Source: Nemertoderma westbladi
Taxonomy: Eukaryota; Animalia; Xenacoelomorpha
Direction: 5' to 3'
NCBI GenBank assembly: GCA_032718475.1
Contig: JAUCBJ010009146.1
Coordinates: 1-64,000 of the forward strand
Length of the DNA stretch: 64,000 nucleotides
Positions within the stretch are counted from its first letter, which is position 1, and each line of letters starts with the position of its first letter. A model generated the notes under the pieces. The model ran no database searches. It saw only the letters and a list, made by a program, of their open reading frames with translations, and was not told the DNA's origin. The position numbers were made by a program, and so were the translations under genes. Shown piece after piece: positions 1,919 to 57,349 of the stretch.

Positions 1919-1937
1919 TAGCCTTTGCTTTAATGCA

Positions 1938-34684: not shown

Positions 34685-35186
34685 GTCGCGGTGCGATGTA
34701 GGGATTAGGCTGTTAGGGGCGCGTCGCGTTTAACGCACAGACTCAGGCGTTGATCGATATCCTGATATCAGGTCAACCAACCTTGACGCCGAGTCTTACG
34801 CTAAACGTGCTCCTATGACCATTCTCGACAGTCAGGCAGCTCGAGGCTGCGGAAGATGAGAAGAAGCGGTTTTACGCGGCTGCTGTAGCAGCTCGTCACG
34901 GCGACTTCTCACCTTTCGTGGCTTCGTCTGTTCGTGTGACGGCACCGCAGGCGAACATGCTGCTCCGCATTATCGCCACCAAACTTCACAGCTCCTGGCT
35001 GCCTGGGGTAAACCCTACGCCACCGTCATGGGATGGGTCCCCACGCGAGTGCAGTTCGCCATTGTCCGCGTTACGTCCCACTGCCTGCGTTGATCTCGCA
35101 CGAGGTGGCGTAGCGGTCTGGGATTTGAGGACGGAGCCGGTCTTCCAACATTGGCCATGCAGCCATGTAAATAAAACTGTAAATAA
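34685..35186 (+). mobile_element. Degenerate 3' fragment of a CRE-like non-LTR element (restriction-like endonuclease)
   Basis: Frameshifted NLDAESYAKRAPMTIL...AAEDEKKRFYAAAVAARHGDFSPFVAS matches the RLE-domain pattern. Ends in an A-rich tail. Confidence 0.65.
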
Positions 35187-35359
35187 TATATTGTTGGACT
35201 TTTCCCGCTCCTACCTAAAAGTTTTTTTTTTTTTTAAAGTATGACAGTATGATTGCTTCCTGGTGGTGGGTATTAGAGCCATTGTTTGTTTTGTGTTTTA
35301 TATTGTTTGTATATGTTTGTTGTAATAATATACACTTAATTAATAAAAAAAAAATTAAC

Positions 35360-35515
35360 TTGGTCGTTTTGGCGGCCAAAATGACCAAAATCGCCAAAAA
35401 ATGGGGTACCTATAACTTTTCGCCGTATCCTTATCCGTATGCATTTGCCGTATGCATTTGCCGTATCCACATGCACATATGCGTTAGGTATGGCCGTATG
35501 GCAGTATGGTATAGT
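35360..35515. repeat. Dispersed repeat with an inverted partial copy at 42225-42348
   Basis: TATAACTTTTCGCCGTATCC...GTATGCATTTGCC here, and its reverse complement GGCAAATGCATACGGATACGGCGAAAAGTTATA near 42258-42290. Confidence 0.7.
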
Positions 35516-35975
35516 ACACATCTGTCATAGGGCTGGATTACTAATATTTATATTACACAGCTCCTCACATCAATGTAGGGTATATTATATTAACACATAC
35601 ATATGTTGTGTTGGGAAAGGGGGGGGGGGGGGGGGGTGTAATTCATCATACATCATCTGATTTATTCACAGGTTATTGTTAGGTCCAGTACTGCAGTAAA
35701 GTAAAGCTGTAGAATTTTAAAACAATCGCTGATTTACATTTTTCACTGTTGTAATTTATAAATATTTAAACATCTACCTATCAGTCTATAGTGGGCAAAG
35801 AACATATACAGTATATTTCTGTATTTAATTGTACATGTGATCATATTATACAAAAATATATTATGCCGATGTACTGTTAATATTACATAACTAAAATCTG
35901 CAATTTGGGTACCGGTACCTCGGACCAGAAGGCAGTATAATGCTGTAATGCCAGACAGGTAGGCCTACTTAAAAG

Positions 35976-36604
35976 CAGGGCTGGCAAAGTAGGTTTTTGT
36001 AAACCTAGGTTTTTGTCGATTTTTGTCAAAAACCTAAACTTTGAAAAAAGCCTAAAACTAGGTTTTTAGGTTTTTGATCACAAAAAAGAGCCAAATTGCT
36101 TGTATTTTGAAAATTTCTGATGACAAAAATATTTTGGTTTTATGCATGATACCCACAGACTAAAGTCTTTTGAGTTACTGTCTTTAACTAAGCCGACAAT
36201 AAAACCTCACTGCTGCACTGCTCGCAGCTGGAATGACTAATAGGCCTACTGTAATATTACCCTACCCGGTCCCCTTTTTAAAACAAAAATCAAATCGATT
36301 ATTTTAATATATTCAGATATTGTAGACTTACTACAGGTATCTACTGAACTACCAGTGCTGTATAAAATATAATCTTGAACAATTGCGGCCCCATATAAAT
36401 TATCTAACCATAAACGAATGAACTGATGAACCAATCAAGCTCAGGCAGTCAGGTCAATCTAATCAATCAATATGCAAATACAGCCTGAGAGAAATACTAC
36501 AAAAACCTAGAAATAACATTCAAAAGCTGCAAAAACCTAACAAGAACCTAAAACCTAATTTTTGTTTTGAAAAACCTACTGACCTAAGGTTTTTGCCAGC
36601 CCTG
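35976..36604. mobile_element. hAT-type MITE with 8-bp TSD
   Basis: TIRs CAGGGCTGGCAAA / TTTGCCAGCCCTG. Perfect TSD CTTAAAAG at 35968-35975 and 36605-36612. Subterminal AAAACCTA repeats. Confidence 0.92.
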
Positions 36605-37294
36605 CTTAAAAGTGATATGATTTAAAGAGTGCCGCTGCCGCTACCTAATGGCAAATAAACATTGTAGGACCAGGTTGAGTGACAGATGATGTCCTTCAGC
36701 CCCGGGATGCGCCACAGCGCTTGTTTTATTGTACTAACTGACACTGGCCGCCCGGTTGGACTTAGATTAATTACTGGCACCCGGTTGCACTCGCAGACAC
36801 ATGGTTTGACTAACTGGCACTAGGTTGGACTTGTAGGCACTTGGCTGCATATGGTTAACTATATAATGGCCCCGAAACAGCGAAAGTAAAGGTATATTAT
36901 ATGGGCAGTGATTTTTTATGTCCTTTTATTTGACTTTTTTGTCCTCCTTTTTTTACGAATTGTGCATAATGACTTTTGTTGTCCCTTTAATGACTTTTGT
37001 TGCCCTTTTAATGACTTTTTATGTATGTATTTCTTCAAACTGTCAGACTGCTGATTTCTGGACTGTCAGACAGTTGATTTCAACATCCCTATGCCAAAAC
37101 ATTCAAAATTTGTTGATTTCTGGTCTGTCGGACAGTTGGTTTCACTATGCCTGTGCCAAAACATATTCCATGATTCCATGATTTATAGACTATGAGATAG
37201 ATTTCCATATGCGCCTGTGGTAAAAGACTCTAAATTTAATAGTTTGTGGTTGTTGTCGATAATCGATTACCACATGACGTAGCAAAACACTCAT

Positions 37295-38385
37295 TTTATA
37301 GCCAAAAACAATTACCAATTGATGGAAAGGAGCAGGTTACAGAGGCGGGCCTTTCTAACCAAAACAATAAACGATCATTTAACTAATTGAGGGAAAGGAG
37401 CGGGTTACAGAGGCGGGATTTTCTAACTAAAACAATAAGCAGTCACTTTACCAAATCAGGGAAAGGAGCAGGTTAAAGAGACGGGATTTTCTAACCAAAA
37501 CAATAAACGATAACATTTCCAATTGAGATAAAGGAGCAGGTTACATAGGCGGGTTTTTCTAACCAAAACAATAAACGATCACTTAATTAATTGAGGGAAA
37601 GGAGCAGGTTACAGAGGCGGGATTTTCTAACCAAAACAATAAACGATCATTTAACTAATTGAGGGAAAGGGGCAGGTTACAGTAGCGGAATTTTCTAACC
37701 AAAACAATAAACGATCACTTAACTAATTGAGGGAAAGGAGCAGGTTACAGAGGCGGGATTTTGTAACCAAAACAATAATAAACGATCATTTAACAAATTG
37801 AGGGGAAGGGGTAGGTTACAGAGGCGGAATTTTCTAACCAAAACAATAAACGATCATTTAACTAATTGAGGGAAAGGGGCAGGTTACAGAGGCGGGATTT
37901 TCTAACCAAAAAAATAAACAGTCACTTTACTAAATGAAGGAAAGGAGCAGGTTGCAGAGGCGGGCCTTTCTAACCAAAACAATAATAAACGGTCACTTTA
38001 CCAAATCAGGGAAAGCAGCAGGTTACAGAGACGACTTTCTAACCAAAACAATAATTTAACTAATTGAGGGAAAGGGGCAGGTTACAGAGGCGGGATTTTC
38101 TAACCAAAACAATAAACAGTCATTTTACTAAATGAAGGAAAGGAGCAGGTTACAGAGGCGGGCCTTTCTAACCAAAACAATAAACGGTAACTTTACCAAA
38201 TCAGGGAAAGGAGCAGGTTACAGAGGCGGGATTTTCTAACCAAAACAATAAACAGTCACTTTACTAAATGAAGGAAAGGAACAGGTTACAGAGGCGGGCC
38301 TTTCTAACCAAAACAATAAACGGTCACTTTACCAATTCAGGGAAAGGAGCAGGTTACAGAGGCGGGATTTTCTAACCAAAACAAC
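37295..38385. repeat. 68-bp satellite, ~16 diverged copies
   Basis: Unit GGGAAAGGAGCAGGTTACAGAGGCGGGATTTTCTAACCAAAACAATAAACGATCATTTAACTAATTGA, with starts at 37391, 37459 and onward. Confidence 0.95.
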
Positions 38386-38544
38386 CGGTCAGCCGGTAGG
38401 CATACCAGTACCGTATTTAAATGGTAGGCTACACAGTAGGCCTACACAGCAGTACCGGTGCCGGTACCGGTACTAAAATACCTAAAATACCTGCTTTATA
38501 CCTATACATCTGTACATGCAATACTTCAAAATAGTGCTCTTTAT

Positions 38545-38742
38545 ACTAATACCGGTACTGATAGCCTGAGAGAACAGCAGTAGAGAAACCGATAGCATGG
38601 AACCTAACGGTAAATTTCTGGTGGACATAAAAAGTAAAAAAAAACTAATACCGGTACTGATAGCCTGAGAGAACAGCAGTAGAGAAACCGGTAGCATGGA
38701 ACCTAACGGTAGATTTCTGGAGGACATAAAAAGTAAAAAAAA
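38545..38742. repeat. 99-bp tandem duplication
   Basis: ACTAATACCGGTACTGATAGCCTGAGAGAACAGCAG... at 38545 and 38644. Confidence 0.9.
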
Positions 38743-39189
38743 GGACAAAAAAAGGATTTAAACGGACAATAAAAATTATTGCGTATTATATGTTAAGAAA
38801 TTCACAAAGAAGGACAGACTGACACGACGGTTTTCAATATCTGTGCGAATGTTTATTCCCTTAGCATTCTCATTGCTGCTTCTATCAGTCTAATGTTAGT
38901 GCCATATACTGTAGCAACCAACAACATTCTATAGCCAGGTTGGTGGAAAAACAGTTCAAAAATAAATTACGGTTGGTTAGTTTTCCAAGCTCCGTCAAGA
39001 AGAGTTAACTGGTTAATACAGTAGCAGTAGGTACTTCACTGCTGGCGCATCCCGGGGCTGGCGGACTGTCACCGGCTGTCAATCATCCTGGACCTGTCCT
39101 GCATTGTTTATTTGACATAAGCTGATAAGGTTGCCCGCAGCCACACTCTTTAAATCACTTAGCTTTAAGTAGGCCTACCTGTCTTCAGT

Positions 39190-42125
39190 CTGAGAGATTG
39201 AGATTGTTTATTGCGCAATAGTCAAATATATGGTTATGGTTAATTATGACATAAACACCAATTAATTAAATATCCATAAATATTAACAGCACTTATTTAT
39301 TTAGTGGTTACATCGAGCTGCGCGGGGATAACCTCATGAGTTATTCAACTCGTTTCCATGAAGGTCCCCGAATGTATCAGTTAAGTCCAACATAATGTTA
39401 AAAACGTAAATAAACAAACTAATAAGAATATTCACGATTACGATACTATTAAAAATCTAATAAATGTAAAAGGTCTTTTTGGTTAAATATTCTAAAATTT
39501 TATAAAATCGTTTGAAAATCATTCTAAAAAATATAGTTGACATGTAAGTTGACATAAAATATAGATACATAGTATGTATCTATATTTTATGTCAACTTAC
39601 ATGTCAAAGCGACGACAGTGTATGTATGTATTACATACATACACTGTCGTCGCTTTACTAAAATTTATTTATTTAAGTTAAAGCGAATTGAATTAAAATC
39701 TTAAAATATTTAAAAAAGGCTTTTAATGGTTAAAGCTCTCAACAACGCAAATAAGTAGTTAATAGGGCTCTAACTGGCTGACTGTAACTTACTGATAGCA
39801 GTATTTAAATAATAATATAGATTTTCATTTTCAGCGGCCATTCACTAATATCTGTTATTGAATTTTAAATAAAAATGTAGTCATTATTTTCATTTTCAGC
39901 TGCCATTGACAAAAGGTATCTTTTTACAGAGTGTTTGAAAGTTTCCAGAGTTTCACAGCTGCGAGTAACCAATGGTAGACCGTTCCAACCAACGGCCCCG
40001 CGGTACGAAAAGGAACTGCACCCTCTAACCAGGTTACGGCGAGGTATGACAGCCCGGTCCTCGCCTCCCGATCGCAGCCCAGAGTGACCCTCGGAGAAGG
40101 AGACGATTTCGCTTAGGTAAGTAGGCGCTATTCCGCGGTAAATTTTGTACATCATCGTTACAAGCAACTGTTCAATGCGATATTCCACAGGTAGCCACGA
40201 TAACTCTTTGAAGTGTGCAACAGATACGTGAGCACGCCGGTCGAGATCAAGACAAGATCGCACACATTTTCTCTGTAACGCTCGGAGTTTACCCTGCAAG
40301 TGAGTGGACGAACTGAAGTACCAGCATGCTGACATGAAGTCGAGGTGAGGCTGGATCAAGGAGTTACATAGTAGACGCTTTGTGTAGCGGTTCAGGGACC
40401 CACCAAAGCGATACATAAAGCGTAACGTCGCATTGCCTTTTTTTATTATCTTCAACGCCATGACGTCACCAGAAAGTAATTGGTTCATGCAGCAGCCGAG
40501 GTACTTTACTTCAGAAACTTGGCGTATAGGGATATTATTGCAGTGTACAATGAGTTCAGATGCGGAGGCTAATCGCTGGGGAGTCCCAAACAAGATACAT
40601 TCCGTCTTCTTAAAGTTGAGGCTAAGTTTATTGTCCACGGCCCACCAGTAGACCCTGGTTAATTGTTTGCTAAGCTTTGGTATATTAGAATGAGAGACCG
40701 TGAGGTTCGCATTGTCGGCCAATTTCATTGATATACAGTTCGGTTCAATGGAAGCAGTTGCTATCGTAGATGTAGAAGGGCTAGTTGAAATAGGTTCCAC
40801 ATAGTCCTTAGTTGCGATGTTCATGTCATTTATGTAGATAATGAACAGTAGAACTGCTAACAAACTTCCTTGCGGCACCCCACATGTTATAGCCATATAA
40901 TCTGAAGACACATTTCCAATAGTCACTGTCTGCATTCGGTGTTCCAGGTAGGATCGAAACCAGGCCACTGTTTCTGGAGAGAGACCAATGAGTACGAGTT
41001 TCGCTAGCAGCCGCTCGTGGTTCACAGTATCGAAGGCCTTTCGCAGGTCGATGAAAACAACTCCTGTGTATTTACCGTCATCCATAGCCTCTCGTATATG
41101 ATTAGACAGATATAACAGACATGTCTCAGGCGAGTAACCCTTCCTGTAGCCAGACTGTAGTTGATCATACAGATTATTGTTAATGATATATTCAGTCATT
41201 TGATCATATGCGATCCCCTCAATTACCTTTGATAGGACAGCTAAGAGTGACACAGGTCGATAATTCCCACGCTCTAGGTGCGTTTCCTTCTTATATACCG
41301 GATTAACCCTTGCTATTTTGAAGGCTTTTGGAAATTTTGACTGGGAAAATGATAGGTTGATTAAATGAGTCATAGGCCCTGCGATGGTTTCTCCACAATC
41401 CCTAAGGAAGCTTGGTGTTAGGCCATCTAGTCCTGGACTTTTATCTATCTTTAGGGCAGATAGTTTTTTAGCAACAGTTTGATCATCAACGTGTTGGAAT
41501 TTGAAACTATTTAGGATAACACCCTTCTTCCTGTAAAATTTTGCAACACCTTCAAGATCGAACGCACCGCTTGATTGGGGAAGATTGTTCACCAAATTTG
41601 AAGCAATTGATGAAAAGAACTCATTGAATTTAGTGGCCATTAGCTTCTGATCTGTTATTAGTTCATTATTAACCATCAGAGAAGTCACCATAGTGGATGA
41701 GACATTCTTACACGGGGCACCCAAATCCTTTAGTGTCTTCCATAGTTTCTTCGAATCATTTCTGTAGGAATTTATTTTCTCCTTAATATACTCTTTTTTG
41801 GCTCTGCGCACTGCAGTTGTTGCTTCATTTACCGCATCTTTATAAGTTTGGCAGTTTACATTCGTTTTCGAGTTTATATAAGCATTCTCATATAAGCATA
41901 TTATATAAGCATTGTTTTTCTCAGCAATTATCGTTCGTACTGTAGAGTCAAGCCATTGGTCCGAACGACTTTTGATCCGCATCGTTCTCATTGGTCTCAT
42001 TCATGAGTATCTAGAGTTGCTTGTAATATTTCTATAAGGTTTTCAATACCAGAATTAACGTCAGTAGCTGATTTTACATCAGCAAAAGAAGAGTTAGTTA
42101 GTAGCATCTAGACAGCAGAGTCTTT
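39190..42125 (-). mobile_element. 5'-truncated L2/Crack-like LINE (RT ORF 39865-42000), probably inactive
   Basis: NYRPVSLL, DLRKAFDTV and GVPQGS present, but the catalytic motif reads LADN. No endonuclease domain. 3'UTR stem-loop and short (CAATCT)n tail present. Confidence 0.9.
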
Positions 42126-42789
42126 TTTCATGTCTTCTGCATGCGTGCTGTGCATACTTCTTACTGGTCTGCAATGCCTAATCTCTAAAATCACATACAG
42201 ATTATTCTCAATAGGAATCCATTACATACGCACATACGCGTATGTACATACGGATAAGGCAAATGCATACGGATACGGCGAAAAGTTATACCCAAACAAA
42301 TGTAGTGTATTCCTATGGGCTGTTCAGCTGTTTGGTCGTTTTGGCGAAGCGATTTAACTCGACTCAGCGAAGACCAGACAGTCCGTCTCCTTGGCCATCC
42401 ATTTGGTTACTCTGACTAAATGTCGGCTCGCTTTCATTTTTCTTATTGACAGATTGTTAACTTACCCGGAGCTGAGTCGGGCATTGCAGTTGTAGTAGAG
42501 GCCACCCACTGAGGCATTGATACAGCACAGGCTAGCTCTGGCTCTGTGCTAACTCAGAGTTGGCATAATTAGGTGATTTTATGATTATGTAATTATTATT
42601 TATCGAGACAGGGGGGGGGGGGGATTGGACGCAAAACTCGCCTTGGCGAATTAATATCCCGCCTCAATGTTATATTCTCAATTTAGGGAAAGGAGCAGGT
42701 TACAGTGGCACGTTATTCTAACCAAAACAATGCATTAAACATAAATGAACAGGTTACAGTTTTATTTTTGATAGTACTGTATAGGTCTT

Positions 42790-43412
42790 TACAATGGCAA
42801 ATAAAACACATTTTAAAAGTGAATTAGAAAATCAATTAAGATTATACACGCTAAAAACAGATGAAACACATATTTATACAGGAAAGTTATTTAAAAATAT
42901 TCAATAGAAAGTATAATAAACACATAATTATGGCAAAAATATAACTAAAAACGGATCTTTAAATAAAAAATTAAAAATATGTACACGTCACAAACAATAG
43001 TCACAATCTCACAAACAATAGTTACAGTGGATACAAAATAAAATAAATAAAAAAACATAAAAAACCATAGCAATGCATAGTTAGTTTGAAAGGGTTAATA
43101 TAATAAGGTAATATAAATAGCGTTGTAGGGTGAAATTTGCAATGGCTACCTGTCTCACTGGTGTATCACTGAAAATATTTAATTTTGTGGCCATTTCACT
43201 GTCAAGTCTTGTTTTAAACATATTCAGACAAGGGTTACCGTTTATGTCCCGCGCATTCACTACTGACTCTGAAAGGAGGTTCCATGTATTCACGACTCGA
43301 TCTGCAAAGTTATTACACCTGCGTAGTGATCTACAGCCGGATCGTTTAAACAGAGCGAGTGATGAGCCAAGTGTTCTATAACTATGTAGTTCACTCCTAA
43401 ACTGAAAGAAGT
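42790..43412 (-). mobile_element. CR1-type LINE 3' fragment
   Basis: C-terminal NFADRVVNTWNLLSESVVNA...NMFKTRLD motif followed by a T-rich 3'UTR. The lower boundary is approximate. Confidence 0.7.
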
Positions 43413-43433
43413 TAGTTTACTAACTCATGCTAA

Positions 43434-43582
43434 ATGTAATAACCAAGGACTACTATACTGAAGGACTGGCACAGCGACAGCGGTAAATCCGTAGGCCTTG
43501 AGTAATCCGGACCCGCTCGGGGTTCGGATTATGGATTACTGCTGTGCCAGTCCTTCAGTATATTAGTCCTTGGTAATAACAT
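43434..43582. mobile_element. Small hairpin MITE (~150 bp)
   Basis: ACCAAGGACTACTATACTGAAGGACTGGCACAGC is inverted to GCTGTGCCAGTCCTTCAGTATATTAGTCCTTGGT. Confidence 0.8.
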
Positions 43583-44534
43583 AACCTAGAATATACTGCT
43601 AAGGTGCTAAAGCTATAGGCCTAGCAAAGCAATACTGCATTAGGCCTACAGCAATATACAGCACAGCAATAACTGAGTAACATATACTGTAATACAGTAA
43701 TAGGGGCCTAGATAGGTTAAAAAAAACCGACTTTCAATATTGATGTTACTACATATATGAGAATTTGTTCCAAATTGTGTAAAAACTCGATGAATATGAA
43801 TAATAGTGATCAAAAATGTGCAGAACTACTCCCATGGTGACCTTCATACGATGAGAAAAACGCTCCGCAGGCTGTTTTTGTTCGAATTTGAATGTTGCAG
43901 TGGGACTAGTTCCTGATATTATGAAATGTAGTTCCAAATATTATGAGATGAAAAAAAAGATTTATTTGGAACATATGCTATATTGGCTACAAATTGGCTG
44001 TTGTAGGAACTTTTCAAGTATACTTGCATATCATTAAAGTGGGATGAATGCACTCGCATATAATTCAATAAACACCATATTTTTGGAAAAGTTAATTTGA
44101 TTCCAGAGACTGAGAGGTGGTCATCAGACCATTCTGCCATTGAGCAGTTGAGTGTTTGTATGCAGATTCGTATGTATGCAGTGCCCACTTCTAATTAGTA
44201 CTGGTACAGTACTTACACTGACTGACTGAGAGAGAGCTGGCATTTGGGCAGTGCTAAGTTTCAGAGTATAGTCATTTCCTTGTATGTGAACACTACCGGT
44301 AGGCCTATAGCATATTATAGCTCGTTATAGGTGGTTATAGATGGTTATATATTTTATTCCTACCAGATAAGGACAGACGTTTTAGCCATCCTAGTTGGGC
44401 CTCGGAAAGACAGGTGTATTAGCCTATATGTACAAATTTTTATATTTCTGCCACTCAATATTTTACTATTTATGAAAGTTGAAGTTGAAAAGACCCATTG
44501 TTGTAATCTCTAACTATATACCGATATATATATA

Positions 44535-45593
44535 ATGGATTTGTCGCCATCCCTAGGTTCAAGTCGCCAAGCGCAAGGTGGAAGTGGAAGGCGCAACTCT
44601 ATCAATACAACCGGGACCGGAAAAATCGATAAACAAAAAAAGACAACCCTTAATCCCTCGGCTGCTCCCAAGAAGTTTGTAAGGACCAGTGTTGAGTGTA
44701 CTTTCTGCACATCTGTTTGGACAGAAATCTCTGTACCAGTCGAGATCTCCAAACAAAACGATTTCGCTACCAAAAAATTTGCTTGTGGGTTCTGTGCAGC
44801 TAATCATATTGTTACCTTGGAGGATGACAACCTGCTACTCAACCAAGAAGTAGAATCAAAAAAGAATACCGTCAAAGATAACATTCGTTCACTAACTGAA
44901 ATAGAAGGTGAGGAAAAGCTAGTTGTGGGACGTGAATTGTCGGTGTTTCGTTGTGAAATTGAGACACTTTTGAATGAGGTAGAAGCAAACTATGTCAAAC
45001 TACAATCGAAAGTGGACAACATTGAGTCCATTGCATCATTTCCTCCCCTTTCTCCCGGGAATGATGGTGATGAAGATAGTGGGGGTACATGGGTGGAAAT
45101 TGTAAAACGCAACGCAAAACATTTGGAAGACTTAAATAAGAAAATTGTGCAACAAAAGGTGGAACCCTCTAGTAACAGTATAGAGAAGGTAATCCGACTT
45201 AATGACCAATGGAAACGGAATGTCATTATACATGGAGTACCTGGCGATGGTGCAAGTAACACAGCTATGAAGCGTGAAGCTGATAATAAGTTCCTAGAAG
45301 AGTCTCTGAATGAAAGATTACCCTACTATGGAATCCATCGACTAGGTAAACCAAGACAGGATAACAACCCTCGTCCACTGCTTCTTACATTTAATTCCAT
45401 TGAAGAGGCATTGAAGGTTATATCCCGGAAGGTATTCGTAGGTGGTAGCAACCGATTATATTTCAACAAAGATTTGTCTAAATTTGAACGCGAGATGGAA
45501 TATCAATTTAGGCAGAAACGACGTATCTCCCGCCAACGATCACAATCCACGAGATTGGATGTGACTAGAAACGAAGCTGAACGTCTAGATTGA
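44535..45593 (+). CDS. LINE ORF1, 352 aa
   Basis: CxxC...CxxC, coiled coil, then KRNVIIHGV...HRLGK...RPLLLTF...YFNKDLSKFER. Confidence 0.85.
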   Translation: MDLSPSLGSSRQAQGGSGRRNSINTTGTGKIDKQKKTTLNPSAAPKKFVRTSVECTFCTSVWTEISVPVEISKQNDFATKKFACGFCAANHIVTLEDDNLLLNQEVESKKNTVKDNIRSLTEIEGEEKLVVGRELSVFRCEIETLLNEVEANYVKLQSKVDNIESIASFPPLSPGNDGDEDSGGTWVEIVKRNAKHLEDLNKKIVQQKVEPSSNSIEKVIRLNDQWKRNVIIHGVPGDGASNTAMKREADNKFLEESLNERLPYYGIHRLGKPRQDNNPRPLLLTFNSIEEALKVISRKVFVGGSNRLYFNKDLSKFEREMEYQFRQKRRISRQRSQSTRLDVTRNEAERLD

Positions 45594-48500
45594 CTACCTA
45601 CTGCAGATGCTTCTTACTGCCTCGCTACCACATGTGAGGAACATTCAGTTGGCTCACACCCATACCCCTGGCTATTAAACTTTGAACGGAGTGGAATACA
45701 CTTTCTTCATATAAACATAAACAGTCTACGATATAAAGTACATGAATTAAGTGTAATGTTGAACCCTCCAGTTATCCATGTTATTGCAATAACTGAAACT
45801 AAACTAGATGACTCAATAACAAACCAACAAGTAAAGATTGATGGATATGATATATATAGGAGAGACAGAACTGGGAATGGAGGGGGGGTTGCACTCTATG
45901 TACGTAAACACTTACCATTTGAGGTGAAGCCCCAGTCATATGCCACTCCTTCTGAACTGTTAATTGGCGAATTATACCTTCCTAAGACGAAACCGATACT
46001 CATTGGAGTAATTTATAAACCCGATGCTGACTATTCTATATTCGAAAACCTCGAAATAACTGCAGGTGATTTATCACGCTATAAAGAGGTAATAATAATG
46101 GGTGATACTAATACAAATATGATGTCTGTGATAAATCCATTAACGGGTGAGATAGTCAAAAATCCACTAGGAATACAACATATCGATAACAACCTGAAAC
46201 AACTATTGCAATTCTGCGAGTCGAACAGTATAGTTCAATTAATACGGGAGCCAACTCGAGTAACTTCAACAACTGCCACTCTATTGGACCATATCTTTGT
46301 TTCAAACCCAAATATGGTAATTACTTCTGGAGTAATTAAGGATACGTTAAGTGATCATTACATGGTGTTTGCAACTAGAAAACGTAAAAAATGTTGTCCT
46401 AAGGAACCAAAATATATCAAGTGTAGATCCTATAATGAATATACTGCTGAGAAACTTATATTCGAATTGCATAACAATAGAGAAATAGATAAGATAGCAA
46501 CTACTACCGATGTGGATGAGGCAACCAATATTTTAACGTTAGCTCTGAATACTGCTCTAGATAAACTAGCACCCAAACGCGAGTATCGAGTTCGATGTCA
46601 TTCTCAGCCCTGGGTGGATACTGAGGTCAAAGAAGCCATTATTAATAGAAATAAACAAACCCATAGATTCCAAGAACACGCAGCCATAATGATGAACAAC
46701 TTCTAAAACAAACCCGCAATGAAACTACAACTATAATTAGAAAGAAGAAGACTGCGTATATCAAAGAGAAAATTGCATTGGCTGGTAAAGACAGTAAAAA
46801 ACTTTGGAAAGCATTGAAAGACATTGGACCCCATTCAAAAAAACAAAAAGAGGATCCCTCAACTCCTACCGTTTTTAAAATAGACGGAAATATATGTAGC
46901 AACACCGAAGATGTATGTAATTATTTTAATGATTACTTTTTAACAATAGCAGATGAGCTCGTAAGTAAGTTTCCGCCACCTAGTGGAAACTACGATATTC
47001 CGAAGGTGGTGGACTATTACAAAAAACTGGGAGTTGTGGAAAATTCTTTCGAATTACACCCTACGACATATGACGAGGTTTACAAAATATGTTCTAGGGT
47101 TGATGTTTCTAAAGCCACTGGATTGGATGAGATACCGGCAAAGATAATAAAGGATGGGTTATCAGTCATTATATCCCCCCTACTGCATATTATTAACCAA
47201 TCTATAATAACCACTAAGTACCGTACAAGTTACAAGATTGCTCATGTAAAGACTGCATATAAAAGCAGTGGTTCGCGACTAGAGAGAGGAAACTTTCGCC
47301 CTCTCTCATTACTTCCAATAATGTCTAAAATACTTGAAAGAGTTGCATTTAACCAGCTGCAAGACACTATATCAATAACAAACTAATAAATAAACTTCAG
47401 TCGGGCTTTCGGGAGGGATATTCAACTGAAACGGCATTAATCTTTGTAGATAGCGCTATTAGAAATGGTATGGACAATGGCAAACTCACTGGTATGGTCA
47501 CTATAGACTTTCGAAAAGCCTTTGACTGTGTGAATCACAATATATTGTTAGAAAAACTAAAGGCTATGGGCGCTACCGATAAAACAAAAGATTGGTTCGA
47601 ATCATATCTTTCTGGTAGACAACAGTTCGTTGCTATTGGCAACACACGATCGGAGACTAAACCTGTTAAAAATGGTGTTCCCCAGGGATCTATCTTGGGA
47701 GTTCTACTGTACCAAGGAGACACTAACGACTTCCACATGGTAAGAGGATGACACCCTGGACCCAACCTTTGCCCATGACACAAACTTAATAAAAACCAAT
47801 GATGACTCAGAATTAATTTCTAAAAGTTTGAGTTCAACAATGGACAGAGTATTCGACTGGTGTGTACAAAATAAACTGACAATAAACTTTGATAAGACCT
47901 ACAGCATACTCATTGGAACACACCAAAAGATAGCTTCCTCTCCTGAACTAGAAGTCTATTGTGGTGGGCAATGTATAAAAAATGCAAAATCGGTCACTTA
48001 CCTTGGCTCCGTGCTAGACCAACATCTAAGTGGGACCGAGATGGCCACAAAGGTAATAAAGAAATGTAACAATAGATTGAAGTTTTTACATAGATATGGC
48101 GGATTACTAGACTACTATACAAGACGTTTGCTATGCAATACACTGATACAACCACATATCGATTACGCCGCATCTACTTGGTTTTACAGCATAACTCAAC
48201 GCCTTCATAAGCAATTGGAAGCACTGCAGAGGAAATGTGTTAGATATTGCCTTGGTTACGGTCCTCGTGAACATATCGGAATCCAACACTTCAAAGAAAT
48301 AAATTGGCTCCCTCTAAACGAAAGAATAAAGGCAGTTATAGCATCACATATGTTCAAAATTGTTAACAACATATCACCCGATTACATGTCAGACCTCGTT
48401 AACCTTCGTTGTCAAACACGCTCACTGCGTTCTACTGAGTCATCAGCTGCGCTCCCCCATTGTACGACAGTTTGCGGCAAGAAAGCGTTCACTTACTTGG

Positions 48501-48640
48501 GCCCAAAAATTTGGAACGAACTGCCTCAAAGCTTAACGAACGTGAAAACTTTAGAAGTGTTCAAACACAACCTCAAAGACTACTACCTACAGCAGCTGCT
48601 AAGCGAAAATGCAAATGAATACATTTATTATGATTATTAA
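45594..48640 (+). pseudogene. LINE ORF2 (APE-RT), disrupted
   Basis: HININSL, TETKL, GDTN, LDHI, SDHY, NFRPLSLL, DFRKAFDCV and GVPQGS motifs. Frame breaks near 46670, 47370 and 47750. The catalytic motif reads FAHD. Confidence 0.9.
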
Positions 48641-49609
48641 TTAACATAACAAACATTGTATTTTATTGAACTTCATAATTATTTATTTTATAGGCTATAT
48701 TTTATATATTACAGTATTTTTATTATTGCATTTATTGCTATTTTTTATTGTATTTTTCAGTTACTTTTAGCATTTCATTGGCGCCATTCCATTTACATTA
48801 CAATTTTGGTGCAAATAATATTGTCTGCTGCATAGAGCACAGGGACCCTTATGGAAACGAGGTGAAACCTCATAAGGCTATCCCTCCATTTTAATCTAAT
48901 ATTGCACATTTTCTACTTGTTTTTTATTTTAAGGTTCTACTTGTTTTATTTTTGTCTACCTTGTTTTATTGATGTCTACCTTGTTTTATTTTGTCTACCT
49001 TGTTTTATTTTGTATACCTTGTTTTATTGTATAAAATTATACTGAGACTCCGAGTTAATTTTACTGGACATATGTGATAAGTTTTAAACTACGTGTTCGT
49101 ATTTTATTGTACCTTGTTAAATAAATTTTATTGTACCTTGTTAATATAAATTTCATTGTATATATATTTTAAACTGTAAATTTTATTTTATTTCAAGTTT
49201 AATGTATGTATATACACGTGATTTATTGTAAACTACTGTACAGAGTTAGACAATTTTATTACATAATTTCAAACATGTATTACCGTCCATTAATTTACAT
49301 AATTTACATAAAACAATGAAAAATAAATTACCGGTAAATTGTGATTTATATATATTATTTCAATATTGTGCAGTATGTATTTTTATATGGGAAAAAATTC
49401 AATCAATCAATCAATGTCATTGTAGCCCTATATGGTGACATACCAGCAGTATGTGACCACCTAGCCAGAGTAGTAGTATAGTAGTAATATATAGTAGTAA
49501 GATATAGTAGTAATATATAGTAGTAAGATATAGTAGTAATATACAATAGGTACATACATTGAATAGGACTAATGAATGTATCTTGCTGAAATATTATTAT
49601 TATCTGATA

Positions 49610-52429
49610 ATGGACCCTCCTGGTATAGATGTGCTGAACCTCTAAACGAACCCGGAGTGAAGTTAAACATCCATTTTTACTCGGGTGTGGAATCGAGTTC
49701 CTTCCTGAAAATAAGTTACCTACTAATCGGGATGTTTTGCGCCGCCTCAACTTCATAATGAAAACCCGCCGGCATAATGAAACCCTTTATATTTCTTCTG
49801 AATCACTGACATCTGAGATTGCTGAGCTTTGGGGGCGAGGTGGTATTCCAACAATTGCAACTCAATCAATAACATTAAAAATCGTTCGGTTCCATAAGGA
49901 ATACGACAACAAGGCTGCAAAGTTTAATAGGAATTCGAAGGGAAGCAAAAGGAGTGACGCTGTAAAAGGGCTTTGAGATTAAGCTGGATAACCTATTTAA
50001 TATAGCTTCGAAGAATGCAGAAGCAATGCTGCAAGCTCGGGCTAATTCAGGTGATTCTGCGGCAGCTGAGAACTTAAAATTCTTTTCTGATCAGCTCTCT
50101 ACACGGCAGGCGAGTATGGTTGGATTGGATTTAGAGAGGGCCAAGAACAGCAAAGCCAAAGCTATTAGAATAGCTAAGAAAGAGGAAGCTGCAGCAAAGA
50201 AGGCAGAGATGAAGAAGGCTAAACTGTCTGAAAGAATAATCGAAAATGTTTCATCAGCTTCAAAAGATAATGTTTCTACTGGAGAATCAACTCAAAATGA
50301 TGATGATAATGACTATGTTCCAAAGTTCAGAAAAGAAAAGAAGAGAAAATCTATTTGCACATCAGTACATACCTCTACAAATGTCCGAGTTCGCTCGACC
50401 TAGTAGTAGTAGTACATACCTCAACTCTCTGCAGGGAAAATATACCCAGCCAGCCTGGCGTAAGAATAGTTTGTGCTACATGTGCCGCCATTGGTATAAA
50501 TGTTATTACCGAAAATGTAACATTAAGCAGGTCAACAATGATGCGTCACCAAAAGAAAAACCATGAAGAACAGGTAATGAAGATAAAGGCTGATATAACA
50601 AGTGACCACGATCAAGGAGATTTGGAGATTCACTTTGATGGTAAGAGATTCAATCAAATAGCTGGGTATAAAGTAGAACCACGACTTGCTGTTTGTGTGA
50701 CTGGATCTGAACTCTGTAATGATAAGTTCATAGGAGCTCCACGAATGAAAGATGAATGTGGTGATACGATGGCTTATACAGTCAATTCAGTACTGATTGA
50801 ATGGGGAATTGTTAACACAGTGAAAGCAGTTTGTGTGGACACCACTAATTCAAACACAGGAGCTGAAAATGATAGTGTTGTTATTTTGGAGGGTCTGCTG
50901 GAACGTCCATTGGTTTGGCTACCATGTCGACACCACATGCTGGAACTAATGTTGAAGGCAGCATTTATCTTCAAGGTTAGCAAAGGGACACAAAGTCCTT
51001 ATGAGGCATCATTCACTGCTTTCCGTGAGGAACAGTATGATCAACTTGTTCTAACTGACTTTATCCTCCCTCAATTACCAGCAGATATGTTTGAAGATTT
51101 TAATGAGGTATTGGAAACCATGGAAGGTTTACTAAAGCCAGATGCTCCTGCACAGCCACGTGGATATTACCTGGATTTGATTGAACTCACCATCATATTT
51201 CTTGGTGGAACTCCACCTCGTGGTATCCATTTTAGACGTCCAGGACCATATAATCATACGAGGTGGATGTCAAAGTTAAGATATGCCATTTTGATGGAAC
51301 TCTTCACTCATCAAATTCAGATGACACCAGAGGCAACCAGTGACCAGCATGATTTTAATCTGTGGGCTATAAGAAATTATGTGGTTTATTGGTTCAGTGC
51401 TCCAGAATTACTGAATGCTCCCGCAAATGATCTTAAGTTTATGGAAAAGCTTAGTGTTCATGCAATTTATGATCAGGATCTTTATCGAGTCTGCAGTACT
51501 GTAATGTCCCGGCATCAATGGTACATCTCAGCTGAGTTGTTGTTACTTGCCTTGATCGACAGCAAGACATCAGACAAAGATAAAGGTGAGATTGCCAGTG
51601 CTCTTCTGGCGCAGCCCATGGAAGATATGGCTTCAAGGCGGCCCCAGTTCCTGTTCTGTAGATGCAATGGGTGGTTTGATTCATCGATGGTATGTTGTGA
51701 TAACGACAAGTGTCCCATTAAATGGTACCACTTTAAATGTGTCAACATATCAAAGAAACCTTTAGGGCAGTGGTATTGTCCACGTTGTCCTCGACCATCA
51801 GTAAATGAGAAGTTCTGCATATGCCAGAAGGGAGGAGATGGAGCAATGGTTGCATGTGATAATGTGTTGTGCACCATTGATTGGTTCCATTTCAGGTGGG
51901 TCTTGATGATCATATGATTTTATGAGACCTTCAATTGATAACAAATATATTTGTTACATATTATATATACCAACCAATATAAGTTTTTCACAGTGTTTAT
52001 CATTATTTGCGTAGACAGACAAACTAACTACAATTACTAATACAATTACTCTATTTATATTAGGTGTGTTGACATCACTACATTTCCAAGTGGGCTGTGG
52101 TACTGCAAGTGGTGTAGAGGAATTGATTCTTCGACACAAAAGAAACCACTAACACGCTGTCTGAAAGAGTCAACCCCAGATCATGGCTGCTTTTCAAGGT
52201 ATATAATCTGGATACAGCTTGGTTGCGATTAAAACCAGAGTTTTACAACACGGACTGTGGTTACTTAGCTGCGAAGGAGAAACTGAACAAGTTGACTACA
52301 GTTAACGATATCTCAGAACGAGGAGTAGCTCACACCTTACGATATCTTCAGTACCCACGGACAACTAATGAGAGAGATTTACAGAACCTCCTCCTGGTTG
52401 CCAAGCACCACATTGACCAATACCCATAA
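49610..52429 (+). pseudogene. hATm-like DDE transposase with two inserted PHD fingers; intron 51896-52063
   Basis: HFDGK, DTTNSNTG, CRHH (CxxH), HTRW and VNDISERGV motifs, plus N-terminal LPTNRDVL and LFNIA. Disrupted near 49975, at 50376-50422 and near 52170. Confidence 0.8.
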
Positions 52430-52631
52430 TATGACCGTGATACTTTTGCAATTATTGTGTGATGGAGATAGTGATTAACTGGACTAGCTTCTTTCTTTCT
52501 TTCTGTATAAACTGTACACCTATCCTGTCTAGGTTACTTGTTGATTGGATTAACCTTGTTTTCAATGTTTGATGTTGAAATGATTAAAATGGACCTTCAT
52601 TGTTAAAACATATGTCATGAAGCAGGCCTAG

Positions 52632-53528
52632 CCCAGTGAAAAGTGCGCAAGCGTATCGCAAGCGTGCAACGCAGGCATATCTGATGTGATTCCCAAGAGT
52701 TATGGCCCGACCTTTACGCAAGCGACCTACTTGCGTTAAGTCGCATAGATATCGCAACAACTTGCGTTCAGTCGCATAAAACTCACATGCGATTCACTTG
52801 CGACTTTCAAGCGTCATGAGGCATAAATATCACAAAAATCTACTGATTGTGATTTTTGTGTAATATATTGAGACCTTGTGACAAAAAATATGATACAGTA
52901 GTTGATTATTCCACTACTGTTTGATACTATGGGCTTCCATATCATCTGCCTACTGTACTTACCTTACATTACATTACATTACACTCTCTAGACATAGAAC
53001 ATTAGACTTCGTGTATGAATCAATACTAGAAATGGTTGGTTATATACAGGTTAATACAAATAGATTAGAATAACCATGATACACTTTTAACTATTCCCTA
53101 TAATTTTCAATTCTATAAAATATATGAATATAATCACTGAATTCGACAGCCATACAGTATTAGATAATTCATATTCATCAATTTTATATTTTAAATCTAT
53201 TTATTTCTTGATATGGAATTTTTTTTTTAATTAATAATCTTGAGTGTAATTAAAAACATGCGATTCACATGGGAATTAACGCATGAGATTCTCATGGTGT
53301 AAAACATGCGTTAAATAAGCGTTAAATGAGGTGTGATTCCCATGCGATTTTCATGCACGGAATCACAGGCGTAAAATAAGTTGTGAATCGCATGCGTGGA
53401 ATCGCTTCCCTATTTTACATGTGATTCACATGCGAATCACAAGAGTTTTATCGCTATTTATTGAGCCGCAATAAAAACGCATGACGCATTAAAATCACTT
53501 GCGATACGCATGCGCATTTTTCACTGGG
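52632..53528. mobile_element. Non-autonomous CMC/EnSpm-like element with 2-bp TSD
   Basis: TIRs CCCAGTGAAAAGTGCGCAAGCGTATCGCAAG / CTTGCGATACGCATGCGCATTTTTCACTGGG, AG on both flanks, and many subterminal GCAT/GCGA repeats. Confidence 0.85.
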
Positions 53529-54312
53529 AGGTATCTTTTCAAACACCTACTGATATCTATCTTACAGTCTTATCCTTCCTATACAGTATATAGGAATGAT
53601 ATGGACAATAACTACATATCAGCATCGAATTAATTTGTACCGAAATACTGAATAATAAGGTTCAATCAACTCACTTTAACGAATAGCAAGTGCAATGGAG
53701 AAGTTCCTACAACAGCCAATCTGTAGAAAATATGGCAAAGGTTCAAAATAAACCTATTTTATTATCTTATACTATTTGGAACTAGTCCCACTGCAACATT
53801 CAAATTCGAAAAAAAAACAGCTTTTTCAGCAACATTTTTTCATGGTTTGAAGGTCACCGTGGGAGTAGTTCGGCACATTTTTGGACACCATCGTTGATAT
53901 TTATCGAGTTTTTACACAATTTGGAACAAATTCTCGTATGTAGTAAAGTAATATTGATAGCGAAAGTTGGTTTTTTTTAACCACTAGCAATCAAGGCTGC
54001 AAGGCTAGCAGCAGCCTGGCAGCAGCAATACAACCAGGTCAGAAGGTGTACGTACACGCGAACAACACCTTGCAGGTTGCAGCCTTGAATACAACACAGC
54101 AATACCGGACAGCCGGACCAGTGCCCTGTTGTCTGAGTGTCATCACTGCACTGACCACAGAACCTCTGAACCTGTCTGCCAGTGCAGGTGCAGCAACGCA
54201 ACAGTCAGTACTGCAGTAGGCTACTGAATTGTTAATACCGGTACTGCTGTACTGTACTGCCTGACTGCTGTAATATTTAAATACTCAGATACTGAAACTG
54301 AAATCAGGAAAT

Positions 54313-54956
54313 ATGACTATGGAAGAGTTTACGACGACTGTCTGCGATTTAGGCCGGTGGCACTTGGTCGCCGCAGTGCTCCTTCTTCCCCTCCTAGCTG
54401 CGCTGAACTCCCCTCTAGGCGGGGAGGCCAGTAGCGACTTCCCCGCCTACCGGATGTACCAATACGACCTGTACGGGAAGGCGTACGGCTGTAAACAGTC
54501 CCGCCTAAACCTCGAAGCCGCTGCCTTGTCTACTACTCCAGGGAGTAGCAACTACGCCCGTAGATGTCTCGTCTACCGTGCCTTGGATCTCACTGTGGAC
54601 CACATAAAAGCGATTCTCGCTACCACAGTCGGTGGTCTACTAGTCCTCCTCCCACCTGATTGGTCAGTCGCATCGGCTGAAGCGATAGCGGCGTTCCAAC
54701 AACTAGAATCCTGGGCTCTCTCCGAAGAGTTCGATCTTCCGGTTTACTTCGCCGCGGAGACTCCGGTACTCCGCGGGGTCCACCAGTCGTTAGTCGCGGG
54801 TACCGCAGCCAGCGAGGCCCCGACCGCCGCTCAGGCCCTGGTGAGGTCTATCAGCGCCGCTGGCTACCAGCTGGTCACCGCCACCACTGACGCCGCTAAT
54901 AAACCCCTACCCAACGCTGAGTTGACCACCCTCTACGGCCTACTAACGGCAGATAG
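54313..54956 (+). CDS. NCLN: Nicalin, exon 1
   Basis: Signal peptide, then FPAYRMYQYDLYGKAYG...LNLEA...RRCLV...GGLLVLLP...PVYFA...AGYQLVT, matching nicalin. Donor AG|GTCAGT (phase 2). Confidence 0.92.
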
Positions 54957-55469
54957 GTCAGTAGGTTGAATTTAAAGATTAGGCCCATTATATTAGTTGG
55001 AGTATATTTTTTTGTTTAGGCCTACTAGTCTTCGGCGGACACTATTGACTATTATACTATTCTTCCTCTGGGTTTATGAATTTTACACAAGTCTGCAAAG
55101 GACGCGGCCTGGCCTGGCGATATAGGCCTGGCCTATATATATCAGTATATTGTTTTATTTGTAAAAAAAAATACAAAAAAAATACAAAAATATCAATCGG
55201 TACCGGCACCGGTAGTAAAAAAGTCTTAAAAAGAATTAATCTAAAATTAGTATTTTTTTAAATATACAGACGGCTGGACGGGAGCGGAATTAACCCACTG
55301 TATGTATGTAGTTCTTAGTCTGTTGCTTAAGGTTACAAACTCTATTCACACCACTACCCTTGTTGCTACTTATTCCATTACGGTACTTAAAGTTACAACA
55401 TCTGTTATTTAAATTATAATTTCTTTATTATTTATTTTTAATTTCACACCATATCAATAAAGATTGGGT

Positions 55470-56290
55470 GATGCGCTGATGCGTGATGGTAACGCCCTTT
55501 AATGGCACAAGAAGTATAGGAAATCCAGCAGCAAAGTACCTTACTGATCTAGACTTTGCTGATGACTTAGAGGTAGGTACTGTCTGAATCACTAGAGGTT
55601 GCTTCCAGTGTTGGTCTTTTTGTAAACTCAAAGAAGACCAGTTTTGACAGTGAACCAAGACAGTTCTCAAGAAATGTCTGATCGTAAGGGCATAAGCCTT
55701 AGGGGCGGCTTACTTGAGCACGTGGATGACTTATGTTACCAGCTACAGGTGAAGACCTTCGGAGACGTAAGGGGAAGGCATGGGCAGCTTTAAATAGTCT
55801 GTCCAGGATTTGGAAGTCTCATAGAATAAAATTGAATCTTAAAGGTTCCATTATTTAGAGCAGCAGTAGCACCAGTACTCCTCTATGGGAGTCAATGCTG
55901 GGCTCTAACTGCTGAGGACATCAAATCTCTGGATGGCACATTCACAAGAATGCTACGCCGGGTTCATTGTGTCAAGTACACTGCACACATCTCCAACCAG
56001 ACACTATATAACATTGGAGGTGTCTCATTGGTTCCCCCAAGCTTGATACTTGAACAGAGCCGCCCCCGCTTTGTAGGACATTGCTTTCGCCGTGAGGACC
56101 AGCCAGTGCATAATCTTGTACTTTGGCAGCCTCATGGAGTGAATAAGCATGGTGGACAGCCCATGACTTTCTTGAGACGCATCTTAAAGGACACTGGCCT
56201 TGAAGATGCGGATGATCTAGCAAATGTCATGGGTGATAAGGAGTTATGGCGGCGCAATTTTGTCGACAAGCCGGCACAGCATTATTAATA
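55470..56290 (+). mobile_element. Degenerate RTE-like LINE 3' fragment in NCLN intron 1
   Basis: YLTDLDFADDL at ~55535-55570, VLLYGSQCWAL, and RFVGHCFR...LVLWQP...DKELWR. Confidence 0.75.
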
Positions 56291-57016
56291 AAATGTAATG
56301 AAGCACACCGATAGTAATTAATTTTCAAATATCATATTAACGTTAATGCAGTATATTGCAGTATTGTAATTCCTTACAACTTAATTTTTATTATTTTTTA
56401 ACAGTTTTTTTTATTTATATAATTTAATTTAATAATTTAATTACATTTTATTGGCGCAATTTCTGCGTTTTTAAATGTAATCTGACTTTTCGAGGTTCCT
56501 GGACCGGGATTTAAATTTTAGTAAATTTTAAAGAATTTTGTCAGTTAGTGAAATTTTTAGTCTTTATTGATTCGTAACATTTTTTTGTCATAAATGAATT
56601 TCCGGCTTATAATTTTCTTTAAACAAATATTAGGCCTAAATTTTATTAGTTTACGAATTAATTCGATAACTTATTTTGCTCTTCTTTACTTTACCGTGTA
56701 TACTAGACGCCGCCCATACAGTATATAGGCCTACCGGTACCTAAATATCTTTACTAGGTCAAAGTTAATTAGATGTAATTTTTTTTAAAGATCTCTACGC
56801 CCCCCGTCGGAGTAAATTATATATTTATTAATTATAATAGAGTTGAGGCTACCCGGGAGTAAAATCAATGTGCACAGCGTTAAAATAAATAATAATTAAA
56901 TTAATTGAGGACAGAGGTAAAAATATTTAACTACTGTAAAAGTAACTAGATGTAATATAATTTATAATTATTTTACAGCAACTTTTTTATTTATTTTTTT
57001 TTTATTACGTTTGCAG

Positions 57017-57239
57017 CGGCGACTCTTCAGACGAGACCCCCACCGTTGTCATAGCGACCCACTATGACACCGCTGGTATGGTCCCCGGTTGGCCGGCCCA
57101 CGGTGGGCCCCAGTCTGGCACTGTGGCCGCCTTCCTGGAGACCCTACGTCTACTGTCCCTTCTCTACTCGCAACCGGCCACTCGGCCTTTATACAACGTC
57201 GTGTTCGTACTCAGTGCCGGTGGCCAGTACAGCTACCAG
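57017..57239 (+). CDS. NCLN: Nicalin, exon 2 (gene continues beyond the window or is incomplete)
   Basis: Acceptor TTTGCAG| is phase-compatible with exon 1. Encodes PTVVIATHYDTAG...YNVVFVLSAGGQYSYQ. Donor CAG|GTGGGA. Confidence 0.9.
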
Positions 57240-57349
57240 GTGGGAATAATATCCGGAGATTTAATTAATACATAGGCCTACGTTTTGGTTTTCAATACTA
57301 ATTATATTACTTTTATTTATAATTATTTCTAAATTGTTTTATTTATATT

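What the first reader, a model, noticed from the sequence alone, without database searches (positions are those of the whole stretch)
51648..52115. Tandem ING-type PHD fingers inserted inside a hAT-type transposase, the second split by an intron
Seen: PHD1 is FCRCNGWFDSSMVCCDNDKCPIKWYHFKCV...WYCPRC. PHD2 is FCICQKGGDGAMVACDNVLCTIDWFHFR|CVDITTFPSGLWYCKWC and is completed only by removing a 168-bp GT-AG intron (51896-52063, with a TACTAAT branch-like site). Both lie in frame between the CRHH/RW region and the catalytic NDISERG. Established: ING PHDs read H3K4me3 through an aromatic/Met/Trp cage with a conserved Asp (F, M, D and W are retained in both fingers), and RAG2 uses a PHD to direct a DDE recombinase. 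Inference: a cut-and-paste transposase with a built-in histone reader.
Basis: partly seen in the sequence, partly recalled or inferred. Interest (0 to 1): 0.8.

Follow-up and report, generated by a model that had tools for sequence, protein, structure and literature searches.

The report
Twin PHD fingers inside hAT transposase
This is a broken copy of a cut-and-paste jumping gene whose family carries two ING-type zinc fingers plugged into a loop of the cutting enzyme; they likely read active-gene histone marks and would steer the element to open chromatin, a layout not seen in any relative I examined.

Summary
The two ING-type PHD fingers and the GT-AG intron (51896-52063) are at the stated places, inside a hAT transposase (fold nearest Hermes, Z 15-16) between ~230-bp TIRs. 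The 'in frame' claim fails for this copy: two extra bases at 52152 shift the frame, and there are other breaks. DNA contigs from two samples of the same organism keep both fingers and the intron and lack those breaks, so the fusion belongs to the family and is not a one-off. The pair sits cleanly in a length-variable loop of the insertion domain (family profile 633/640; after Hermes residue ~458). None of 155 related proteins and 81 related loci has a PHD. Cage residues F/M/W and the Asp are kept. Finger 2 is ING-like throughout; finger 1 deviates (Cys for Gly, Lys for Glu). Differences between copies in the fingers lean synonymous (9 of 16, weak). No RNA run was listed and binding is untested. 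PHD-bearing transposases are known in other superfamilies, and this scan noted twin ING fingers inside an Academ transposase on other DNA. I found no hAT case in print. New variant of a known kind.

The parts
43709..43944 (+). Left terminal inverted repeat (imperfect, begins TAG)
   Evidence: 199 of 227 aligned bases match the right end; no target-site duplication found on its flanks
44288..49417 (+). LINE retrotransposon (ORF1, endonuclease, RT; TCAA-type tail) inserted into the element's 5' non-coding part; not part of the family
   Evidence: ORFs; an X2 contig joins 44287 to ~49418/49431 without it (table 5)
49638..49973 (+). Transposase N-terminal piece 1
   Evidence: Family profile positions 7-101, E 9e-17
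49966..50400 (+). Transposase N-terminal piece 2 (frameshifted against piece 1 in this copy)
   Evidence: Profile positions 106-229, E 3e-13
50364..50410 (+). 47-bp insertion (3' tail of a very high-copy retroposon, (TAG)n, 12-bp duplication) that breaks the frame
   Evidence: Absent from contigs of X1, X2, X3; depth about 30,000-50,000 over that bin, with many loose ends; sequence
50442..51647 (+). Catalytic core and alpha-helical insertion domain: D at 50637, D at 50838, CRHH 50925-50936, RW 51261-51266
   Evidence: The open frame 50313-51914 matches profile 232-633, E 8e-109; invariant D66, D133; model pLDDT 93, Hermes Z 15.8, rmsd 4.8, 300 aligned
51654..51788 (+). PHD finger 1, ING type, complete C4HC3
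   Evidence: ING1 PHD E 5.7e-16; Pfam PF00628 E 7e-4, under the gathering score
51813..51895 (+). PHD finger 2, first exon part
   Evidence: ING-family matches E 1.3e-7 to 3e-3
51896..52063 (+). Predicted phase-2 GT-AG intron, 168 nt here and 174 nt in other copies; flanked by an AGGTG direct repeat
   Evidence: Best of 99 translations scored; kept in X1-X3 contigs with a +8 and a -2 indel; no RNA evidence
52064..52115 (+). PHD finger 2, second exon part (CVDI...WYCKWC)
52152..52153 (+). Two extra bases (AC duplication) in this copy; frameshift between PHD2 and the catalytic Glu
   Evidence: Left out in X1, X2, X3 contigs
52139..52426 (+). C-terminal transposase part with catalytic Glu (NDISERG, E at 52316); premature stop at 52427 in this copy
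   Evidence: Profile 640-734, E 7e-22; other copies read GAA at 52427
52630..53529 (.). Nested MITE (CCCAGTG ends, 2-bp AG duplication) in the 3' non-coding part; not in all copies
   Evidence: 31-nt arms, 94% complementary; an X3 contig skips 899 nt here
53748..53986 (-). Right terminal inverted repeat

Best explanation
A low-copy hAT DNA transposon family of this animal encodes, after a predicted splice, one transposase with two ING-type PHD fingers inserted in a variable loop of its insertion domain, and the fingers likely bind methylated H3K4 tails and so would tether the transpososome to active, promoter-type chromatin and bias where it inserts. Shown: hAT fold, both fingers, clean insertion site, presence in other family copies with an open frame across this region, absence from relatives. 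Inferred: the splice, zinc folding, H3K4me binding (finger 2 the likelier reader), and that the binding acts at target capture. The copy in this window is dead (LINE, 47-bp and MITE insertions, two more frameshifts, a stop).
For: Fold nearest Hermes, well above the rest (Foldseek E 3e-6; VIA Z 15.3 against 10.5 next). The transposase runs to profile position 633 and resumes at 640 of 746, so ~100 residues were added with at most 6 lost. The site follows Hermes residue ~458, and 4 of 105 relatives carry acidic stretches of 23-41 extra residues at the same place: a permissive surface loop. The fingers and intron are in contigs of 2 samples, where the frame is open from HQWY past NDISERG. All 16 zinc ligands and cage F/M/W plus the Asp are kept in window and majority copies. 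W238 and M226 are named as ING2 cage residues in PMC4225485 (section 11 read). Between copy types 9 of 16 changes in the fingers are synonymous against 21-28% expected (p 0.002-0.016), and the 3 private changes of a minor X1 type are all silent. The right end lies 326 bp upstream of a nicalin start codon, where H3K4me3 is expected; this is one insertion only.
Against: No binding or insertion-site data. Finger 1 has Cys at the ING Gly position, Lys at Glu237 and Phe/Ser at Ser222/Gly224; it may bind weakly or something else. The selection signal is small and was tested after the fact: the majority copy alone gives 6 of 12 (p 0.02-0.09), and the contrast with the flanks (3 of 10) is not significant (Fisher p 0.25). 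PHD-less hAT elements such as Hermes already prefer nucleosome-free DNA (a title in the reference list of PMC10368747), so a promoter-side insertion needs no reader. The fingers folded with low confidence in the model (pLDDT 31-64, with no alignment rows for them). The family is known from one organism only.
Confidence: 0.5

Rival explanations
1. The fingers read H3K4me but act at the donor side or as an allosteric switch: they hold the transposase on element ends lying in open chromatin, or stimulate cutting there as the RAG2 PHD is recalled to do, without biasing target choice.
For: Same residue evidence as the main reading. The site lies in the insertion domain, which also carries the catalytic RW and CxxH motifs.
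Against: No direct evidence either way; the one mapped insertion is promoter-proximal.
Confidence: 0.2
2. The fingers serve as a structural or protein-contact module (for example oligomerisation) rather than a histone reader, in the place where Hermes has its swapped oligomerisation helix.
For: The site maps just after Hermes ~458. PMC10368747 (passages) says a swapped helix of the insertion domain holds the Hermes octamer together; its residue numbers (about 497-516) are recalled. Finger 1 departs from the ING reading surface.
Against: Cage Met/Trp/aromatic and the Asp are kept in both fingers although the two share only 23 of 46 residues, which points to selection on the peptide-binding face.
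Confidence: 0.13
3. Neutral cargo: a recent capture tolerated in a permissive loop, carried along by a small family with no function.
For: Seen in one organism; 0 of 155 proteins and 0 of 81 loci share it. The loop accepts low-complexity inserts in relatives.
Against: The two fingers are 50% diverged from each other and each about as far from fungal ING fingers (up to 23 matches in 45), yet keep every zinc ligand and the cage. The insert has gained an intron and keeps the frame, and changes lean synonymous.
Confidence: 0.12
4. The 168-bp piece is an unspliced insertion, not an intron; all copies seen would then end before the catalytic Glu and the family would be non-autonomous.
For: It is flanked by a 5-bp AGGTG direct repeat, as an insertion scar would be.
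Against: Canonical donor, branch site, pyrimidine tract and AG. Removing exactly this piece gives the best PHD of 99 translations scored. Indels inside it are tolerated while the majority copy's downstream frame stays open.
Confidence: 0.05

Closest known systems
hAT superfamily; nearest solved member Hermes (PDB 6dwz, 4d1q, 8edg). The sequence family is the widespread animal group with TAGGGTG ends that I recall as Repbase 'hATm' (label recalled, not tested)
   Same: DDE core, CxxH and RW motifs, helical insertion domain, Hermes fold; relatives have TAGGGTG ends and 8-bp duplications (L017, L019, L055, L056)
   Different: About 100 extra residues with two ING PHDs before the catalytic Glu (HxW-to-NDxxE spacing 207 against 68-146, median 105, in 105 relatives); ~230-bp TIRs; an intron; no duplication found on this copy
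PHD-bearing transposases of other superfamilies: Rehavkus/MULE (PMC6446971, passages), Ginger1-9_HM (PMC2836005, passages), ISL2EU-1_HM, IS4EU-1_BF, Mariner-25_HM, P-1_CR (PMC3597677, supplement 3 rows)
   Same: A DDE transposon carrying a PHD finger
   Different: Other superfamilies. In Ginger1 the PHD is C-terminal; none of the 14 TE rows with a PHD in that supplement is a hAT; none is described there as a twin ING-type pair inside the insertion domain
Academ transposases with internal twin ING-like PHDs (earlier finding e1-8148343; it points to the PHD-bearing AcademH sublineage of Kojima 2020, which is not held and is recalled only)
   Same: Two ING-like fingers inside a DDE catalytic domain
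   Different: Unrelated transposase superfamily; whether the finger pairs share an origin was not testable here
ING1-5 / Yng1 PHD fingers
   Same: C4HC3 spacing, aromatic-Met-Trp cage, Asp
   Different: Tandem pair, no ING N-terminal domain; finger 1 has Cys for Gly228 and Lys for Glu237; Tyr215 is Phe in both
RAG1-RAG2 / Transib-derived recombinase (PMC4411706, passages)
   Same: DDE recombinase with a PHD finger
   Different: RAG2's PHD is on a separate Kelch-PHD subunit, not inside the catalytic chain

Membership tests
hAT superfamily | DDE triad with a large helical insertion between the second D and E | tested here: met
   D66 and D133 invariant in 99 sequences; E in NDISERG at profile ~697; helical domain in the model
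hAT superfamily | C/DxxH motif after the second D, and RW motif | tested here: met
   CRHH 50925, RW 51261; nearly invariant. The motif is shared with Dada, Kolobok, MuDR and P (PMC10045372 passage), so it is not specific
hAT superfamily | Hermes-like fold | tested here: met
   Z 15.8, rmsd 4.8, 300 aligned to 6dwz, against ISCth4 8.5 and P element 8.6
hAT superfamily | Terminal inverted repeats | tested here: met
   199 of 227 matches, 43709-43944 / 53748-53986
hAT superfamily | 8-bp target-site duplication | tested here: inconclusive
   None on this decayed copy; present in 4 related loci with TAGGGTG ends; flanks of other family copies not available
hAT superfamily | N-terminal BED finger / Pfam hAT dimerisation domain | tested here: inconclusive
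   No Pfam hit to either in the pieces scanned; the sequence profile does not reach Hermes
hATm group (Repbase label, recalled) | Sequence kinship to named hATm transposases | not testable with these tools
   No Repbase sequences on hand; PMC8721813 (passages) only names hATm-3 with a TATATATA duplication
Spy (PHIS) | D(79-80)D(44-62)E spacing and AAA|TTT target | tested here: not met
   PMC4122938 Results read; here D(66)D and a long insertion domain; flanks are not AAA/TTT
ING-type PHD finger | C4HC3 ligands with ING spacing; best matches are ING fingers | tested here: met
ING-type PHD finger | Trimethyl-lysine cage (Tyr215, Met226, Trp238) and Arg2-pocket acids (Asp230, Glu237) | tested here: inconclusive
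   F/M/W/D in both fingers; position 237 is D (window) or E (majority) in finger 2 and K in finger 1; position 228 is A in finger 2 (as in plant ING1) and C in finger 1. Numbering partly recalled
ING-type PHD finger | Binds H3K4me3 | not testable with these tools
   Needs a peptide-binding assay

The most novel reading that the evidence does not exclude
An autonomous hAT family that aims itself at H3K4me3-marked promoters with a twin ING reader plugged into the loop where Hermes carries its oligomerisation helix, with the intron in finger 2 able to act as a switch (retention gives a one-finger protein without the catalytic Glu, like the P-element repressor).
Probability: 0.3. Interest if true: 0.75.

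Novelty: new variant of a known kind. Interest (0 to 1): 0.5.

Why it matters
Many transposons are thought to have picked up chromatin readers to choose where they land, but for cut-and-paste elements this has hardly been tested. It also marks a natural site in the hAT insertion domain that accepts a whole foreign module, which is useful for anyone attaching targeting domains to hAT gene-transfer tools.

Tried and rejected
No whole genome is held, so copies and insertion sites could not be listed. No RNA holder was listed: splicing and expression are untested, not refuted. Search for longer fused proteins: 0 of 4092 candidates (weak evidence). Flank-plus-PHD region search: 3 of 57 candidates, all fungal-type ING proteins. 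Atlas: whole protein only unnamed clusters at 0.83-0.84; PHD part no usable hit. Metagenome scan with the PHD-side query: 62 pattern matches, none confirmed. The sequence profile against the PDB does not reach Hermes. No TSD on this copy. Spy was considered and rejected. Run X5 was laid once but covers almost none of the element and was left out; X4 and X6 were never laid. A histone-peptide complex could not be modelled (no eukaryotic histone reference or methyl-lysine on offer), so no complex job was sent. Paper searches for a hAT transposase with a PHD listed none that describes one; Repbase Reports and Kojima 2020 (not held) could not be read and may bear on novelty. Supplement file 1 of PMC4122938 and of PMC3597677 was not searched. 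Earlier-findings look-ups by sequence and relatives were empty.

Full report
Observation. PHD1 (51654-51788) matches ING1's solved finger at E 5.7e-16, and the top 20 of 64 matches are all ING/Yng/Pho23-family fingers. The first part of PHD2 gives the same family. The intron is phase 2, AT-rich, with a CTAAT branch-like site 26 nt before the AG. One point is wrong: in this copy the spliced frame does not reach NDISERG.

The element. TIRs of about 230 bp (199 of 227 matches) lie at 43709-43944 and 53748-53986, with no target duplication. Between them are a 5.1-kb LINE, a 47-bp retroposon tail and a 0.9-kb MITE, each missing from at least one contig of the same organism; without them the element is about 4.2 kb. 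A profile of 59 full-length relatives (746 positions) is covered in order by four native-frame pieces: 7-101, 106-229, 232-633 and 640-734. The predicted core (pLDDT 93) matches Hermes far above anything else (Z 15.8, rmsd 4.8, 300 aligned). Related loci end in TAGGGTG and four show 8-bp duplications. It is a hAT transposase. The group name hATm is my recall and was not tested. Spy was ruled out on DDE spacing and target (PMC4122938 Results read).

Family or one-off. Three DNA runs from two samples hold the stretch. Laid on 51380-52625, X2 and X3 each give one contig across the whole region and X1 gives tiled contigs of at least three sequence types over PHD1. All keep the fingers. The intron is 174 nt in them, the two extra bases at 52152 are absent, and the stop at 52427 reads GAA. 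With those differences the frame is open from HQWY through both fingers and NDISERG. The N-terminal frameshift could not be checked, because that row was not displayed. So the fusion is a property of the family, and the window holds a dead copy. Depth hints at a few copies, but contig depth is not a copy number.

Where it sits. The fingers add about 100 residues between profile positions 633 and 640. The HxW-to-NDxxE spacing is 207, against 68-146 (median 105) in the 105 of 155 related proteins that span the site; the four longest carry acidic stretches at this same spot. The last core residues before the insert align to Hermes 452-459. That is the start of the linker that, as I recall, is partly disordered in Hermes and carries the swapped helix. 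The helix's role in holding the octamer together is stated in PMC10368747 (passages), but its residue numbers are recalled.

Distribution. A full HMMER scan of 1.84 billion representatives gave 6,836 hits; I saw the best 150, of which 149 are transposases without a PHD and one (P0065) is an unnamed five-finger ING-like array without a transposase. A protein with both parts would have added the two scores and ranked at the top. With this makes 155 transposases, 0 with a PHD by pattern or profile. Of 81 related loci (the best 80 of 491 confirmed, plus 1), 0 have a PHD in any frame, and 64 span the site at normal spacing. Best identity to the window protein is about 30-37%, so close kin were not sampled.

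Reader residues and selection. Both fingers keep all zinc ligands, Phe for Tyr215, Met226, Trp238 and Asp230. Finger 2 has Ala228 (as in plant ING1) and Asp/Glu237. Finger 1 has Cys228, Lys237, Phe222 and Ser224 in both window and majority copies (numbering partly recalled; W238 and M226 from PMC4225485 section 11). The fingers share 23 of 46 residues, so the pair is old. Changes in the finger region are synonymous in 6 of 12 cases for the majority type and 9 of 16 with minor types, against 21-28% expected (p 0.002-0.09); the flanks give 3 of 10, and the contrast is not significant. This is weak support for selection.

Mechanism. Most likely (0.5) the spliced transposase presents the fingers on a flexible surface loop, they bind H3K4me-marked nucleosomes, and integration is drawn to DNA beside active promoters. 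The one mapped insertion ends 326 bp before a nicalin start codon, which fits but is a single case, and PHD-less hATs also favour open DNA. Rivals: donor-side or allosteric use of the same binding (0.2), a structural role (0.13), neutral cargo (0.12), no splicing (0.05).

What is known. PHDs are in print for Rehavkus (PMC6446971, passages), Ginger1 (C-terminal; PMC2836005, passages), and ISL2EU, IS4EU, Mariner, P, BEL, Gypsy and CR1 elements (PMC3597677 supplement 3; 14 TE rows, none hAT). RAG2 has one on a separate subunit (PMC4411706, passages). PMC12730594, PMC10045372, PMC10799480 and PMC8721813 were read as passages and hold no hAT-PHD case. Seven paper searches found none; Repbase Reports and Kojima 2020 were out of reach. 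This scan's earlier notes, unchecked by me, report twin ING fingers inside an Academ transposase, a PHD inside a mariner domain, and PHD-like fingers on a rotifer and a dinoflagellate hAT. PHD capture is therefore a recurring theme, and this is a new, clean instance in the hAT insertion domain: new variant of a known kind, interest 0.5.

Noticed in passing
window 54313-57250: Nicalin gene (E 2e-23 to human nicalin); its start codon is 326 bp from the transposon's right end.
   Followed up: partly
window 50364-50410: 3' tail of an extremely abundant retroposon ending in (TAG)n, with a 12-bp duplication; contigs share an upstream consensus beyond the window's piece (loose ends).
   Followed up: partly
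window 52630-53529: High-copy 0.9-kb MITE with CCCAGTG ends and a 2-bp AG duplication; present in an X2 contig and absent from an X3 contig of the same sample.
   Followed up: partly
window 44288-49417, 30062-34267 (-), 39865-42000 (-): Three related LINE copies with endonuclease and/or RT frames; the one at 30062-33070 has an open 1002-aa frame.
   Followed up: no
window 51894-51898 and 52062-52066: The intron is flanked by a perfect AGGTG direct repeat, as expected if it arose by insertion at a proto-splice site.
   Followed up: no
window 27548-29050 (-): Intronless 500-aa frame that looks like the cargo lectin LMAN1/ERGIC-53 (recalled, not tested).
   Followed up: no
window 560-14946: Large tandem array with the same 144-158-codon frames recurring about every 0.8, 2.4 and 4.9 kb.
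   Followed up: no
P0065: Unnamed 288-aa protein made of five tandem ING-like PHD fingers, from a 1.9-kb metagenome contig; a possible kind of donor for finger pairs.
   Followed up: partly
L081:1569-5094: A related hAT element with TAGGGTG ends and TIRs of at least 400 bp inside a 19.8-kb contig of the viral collection.
   Followed up: no
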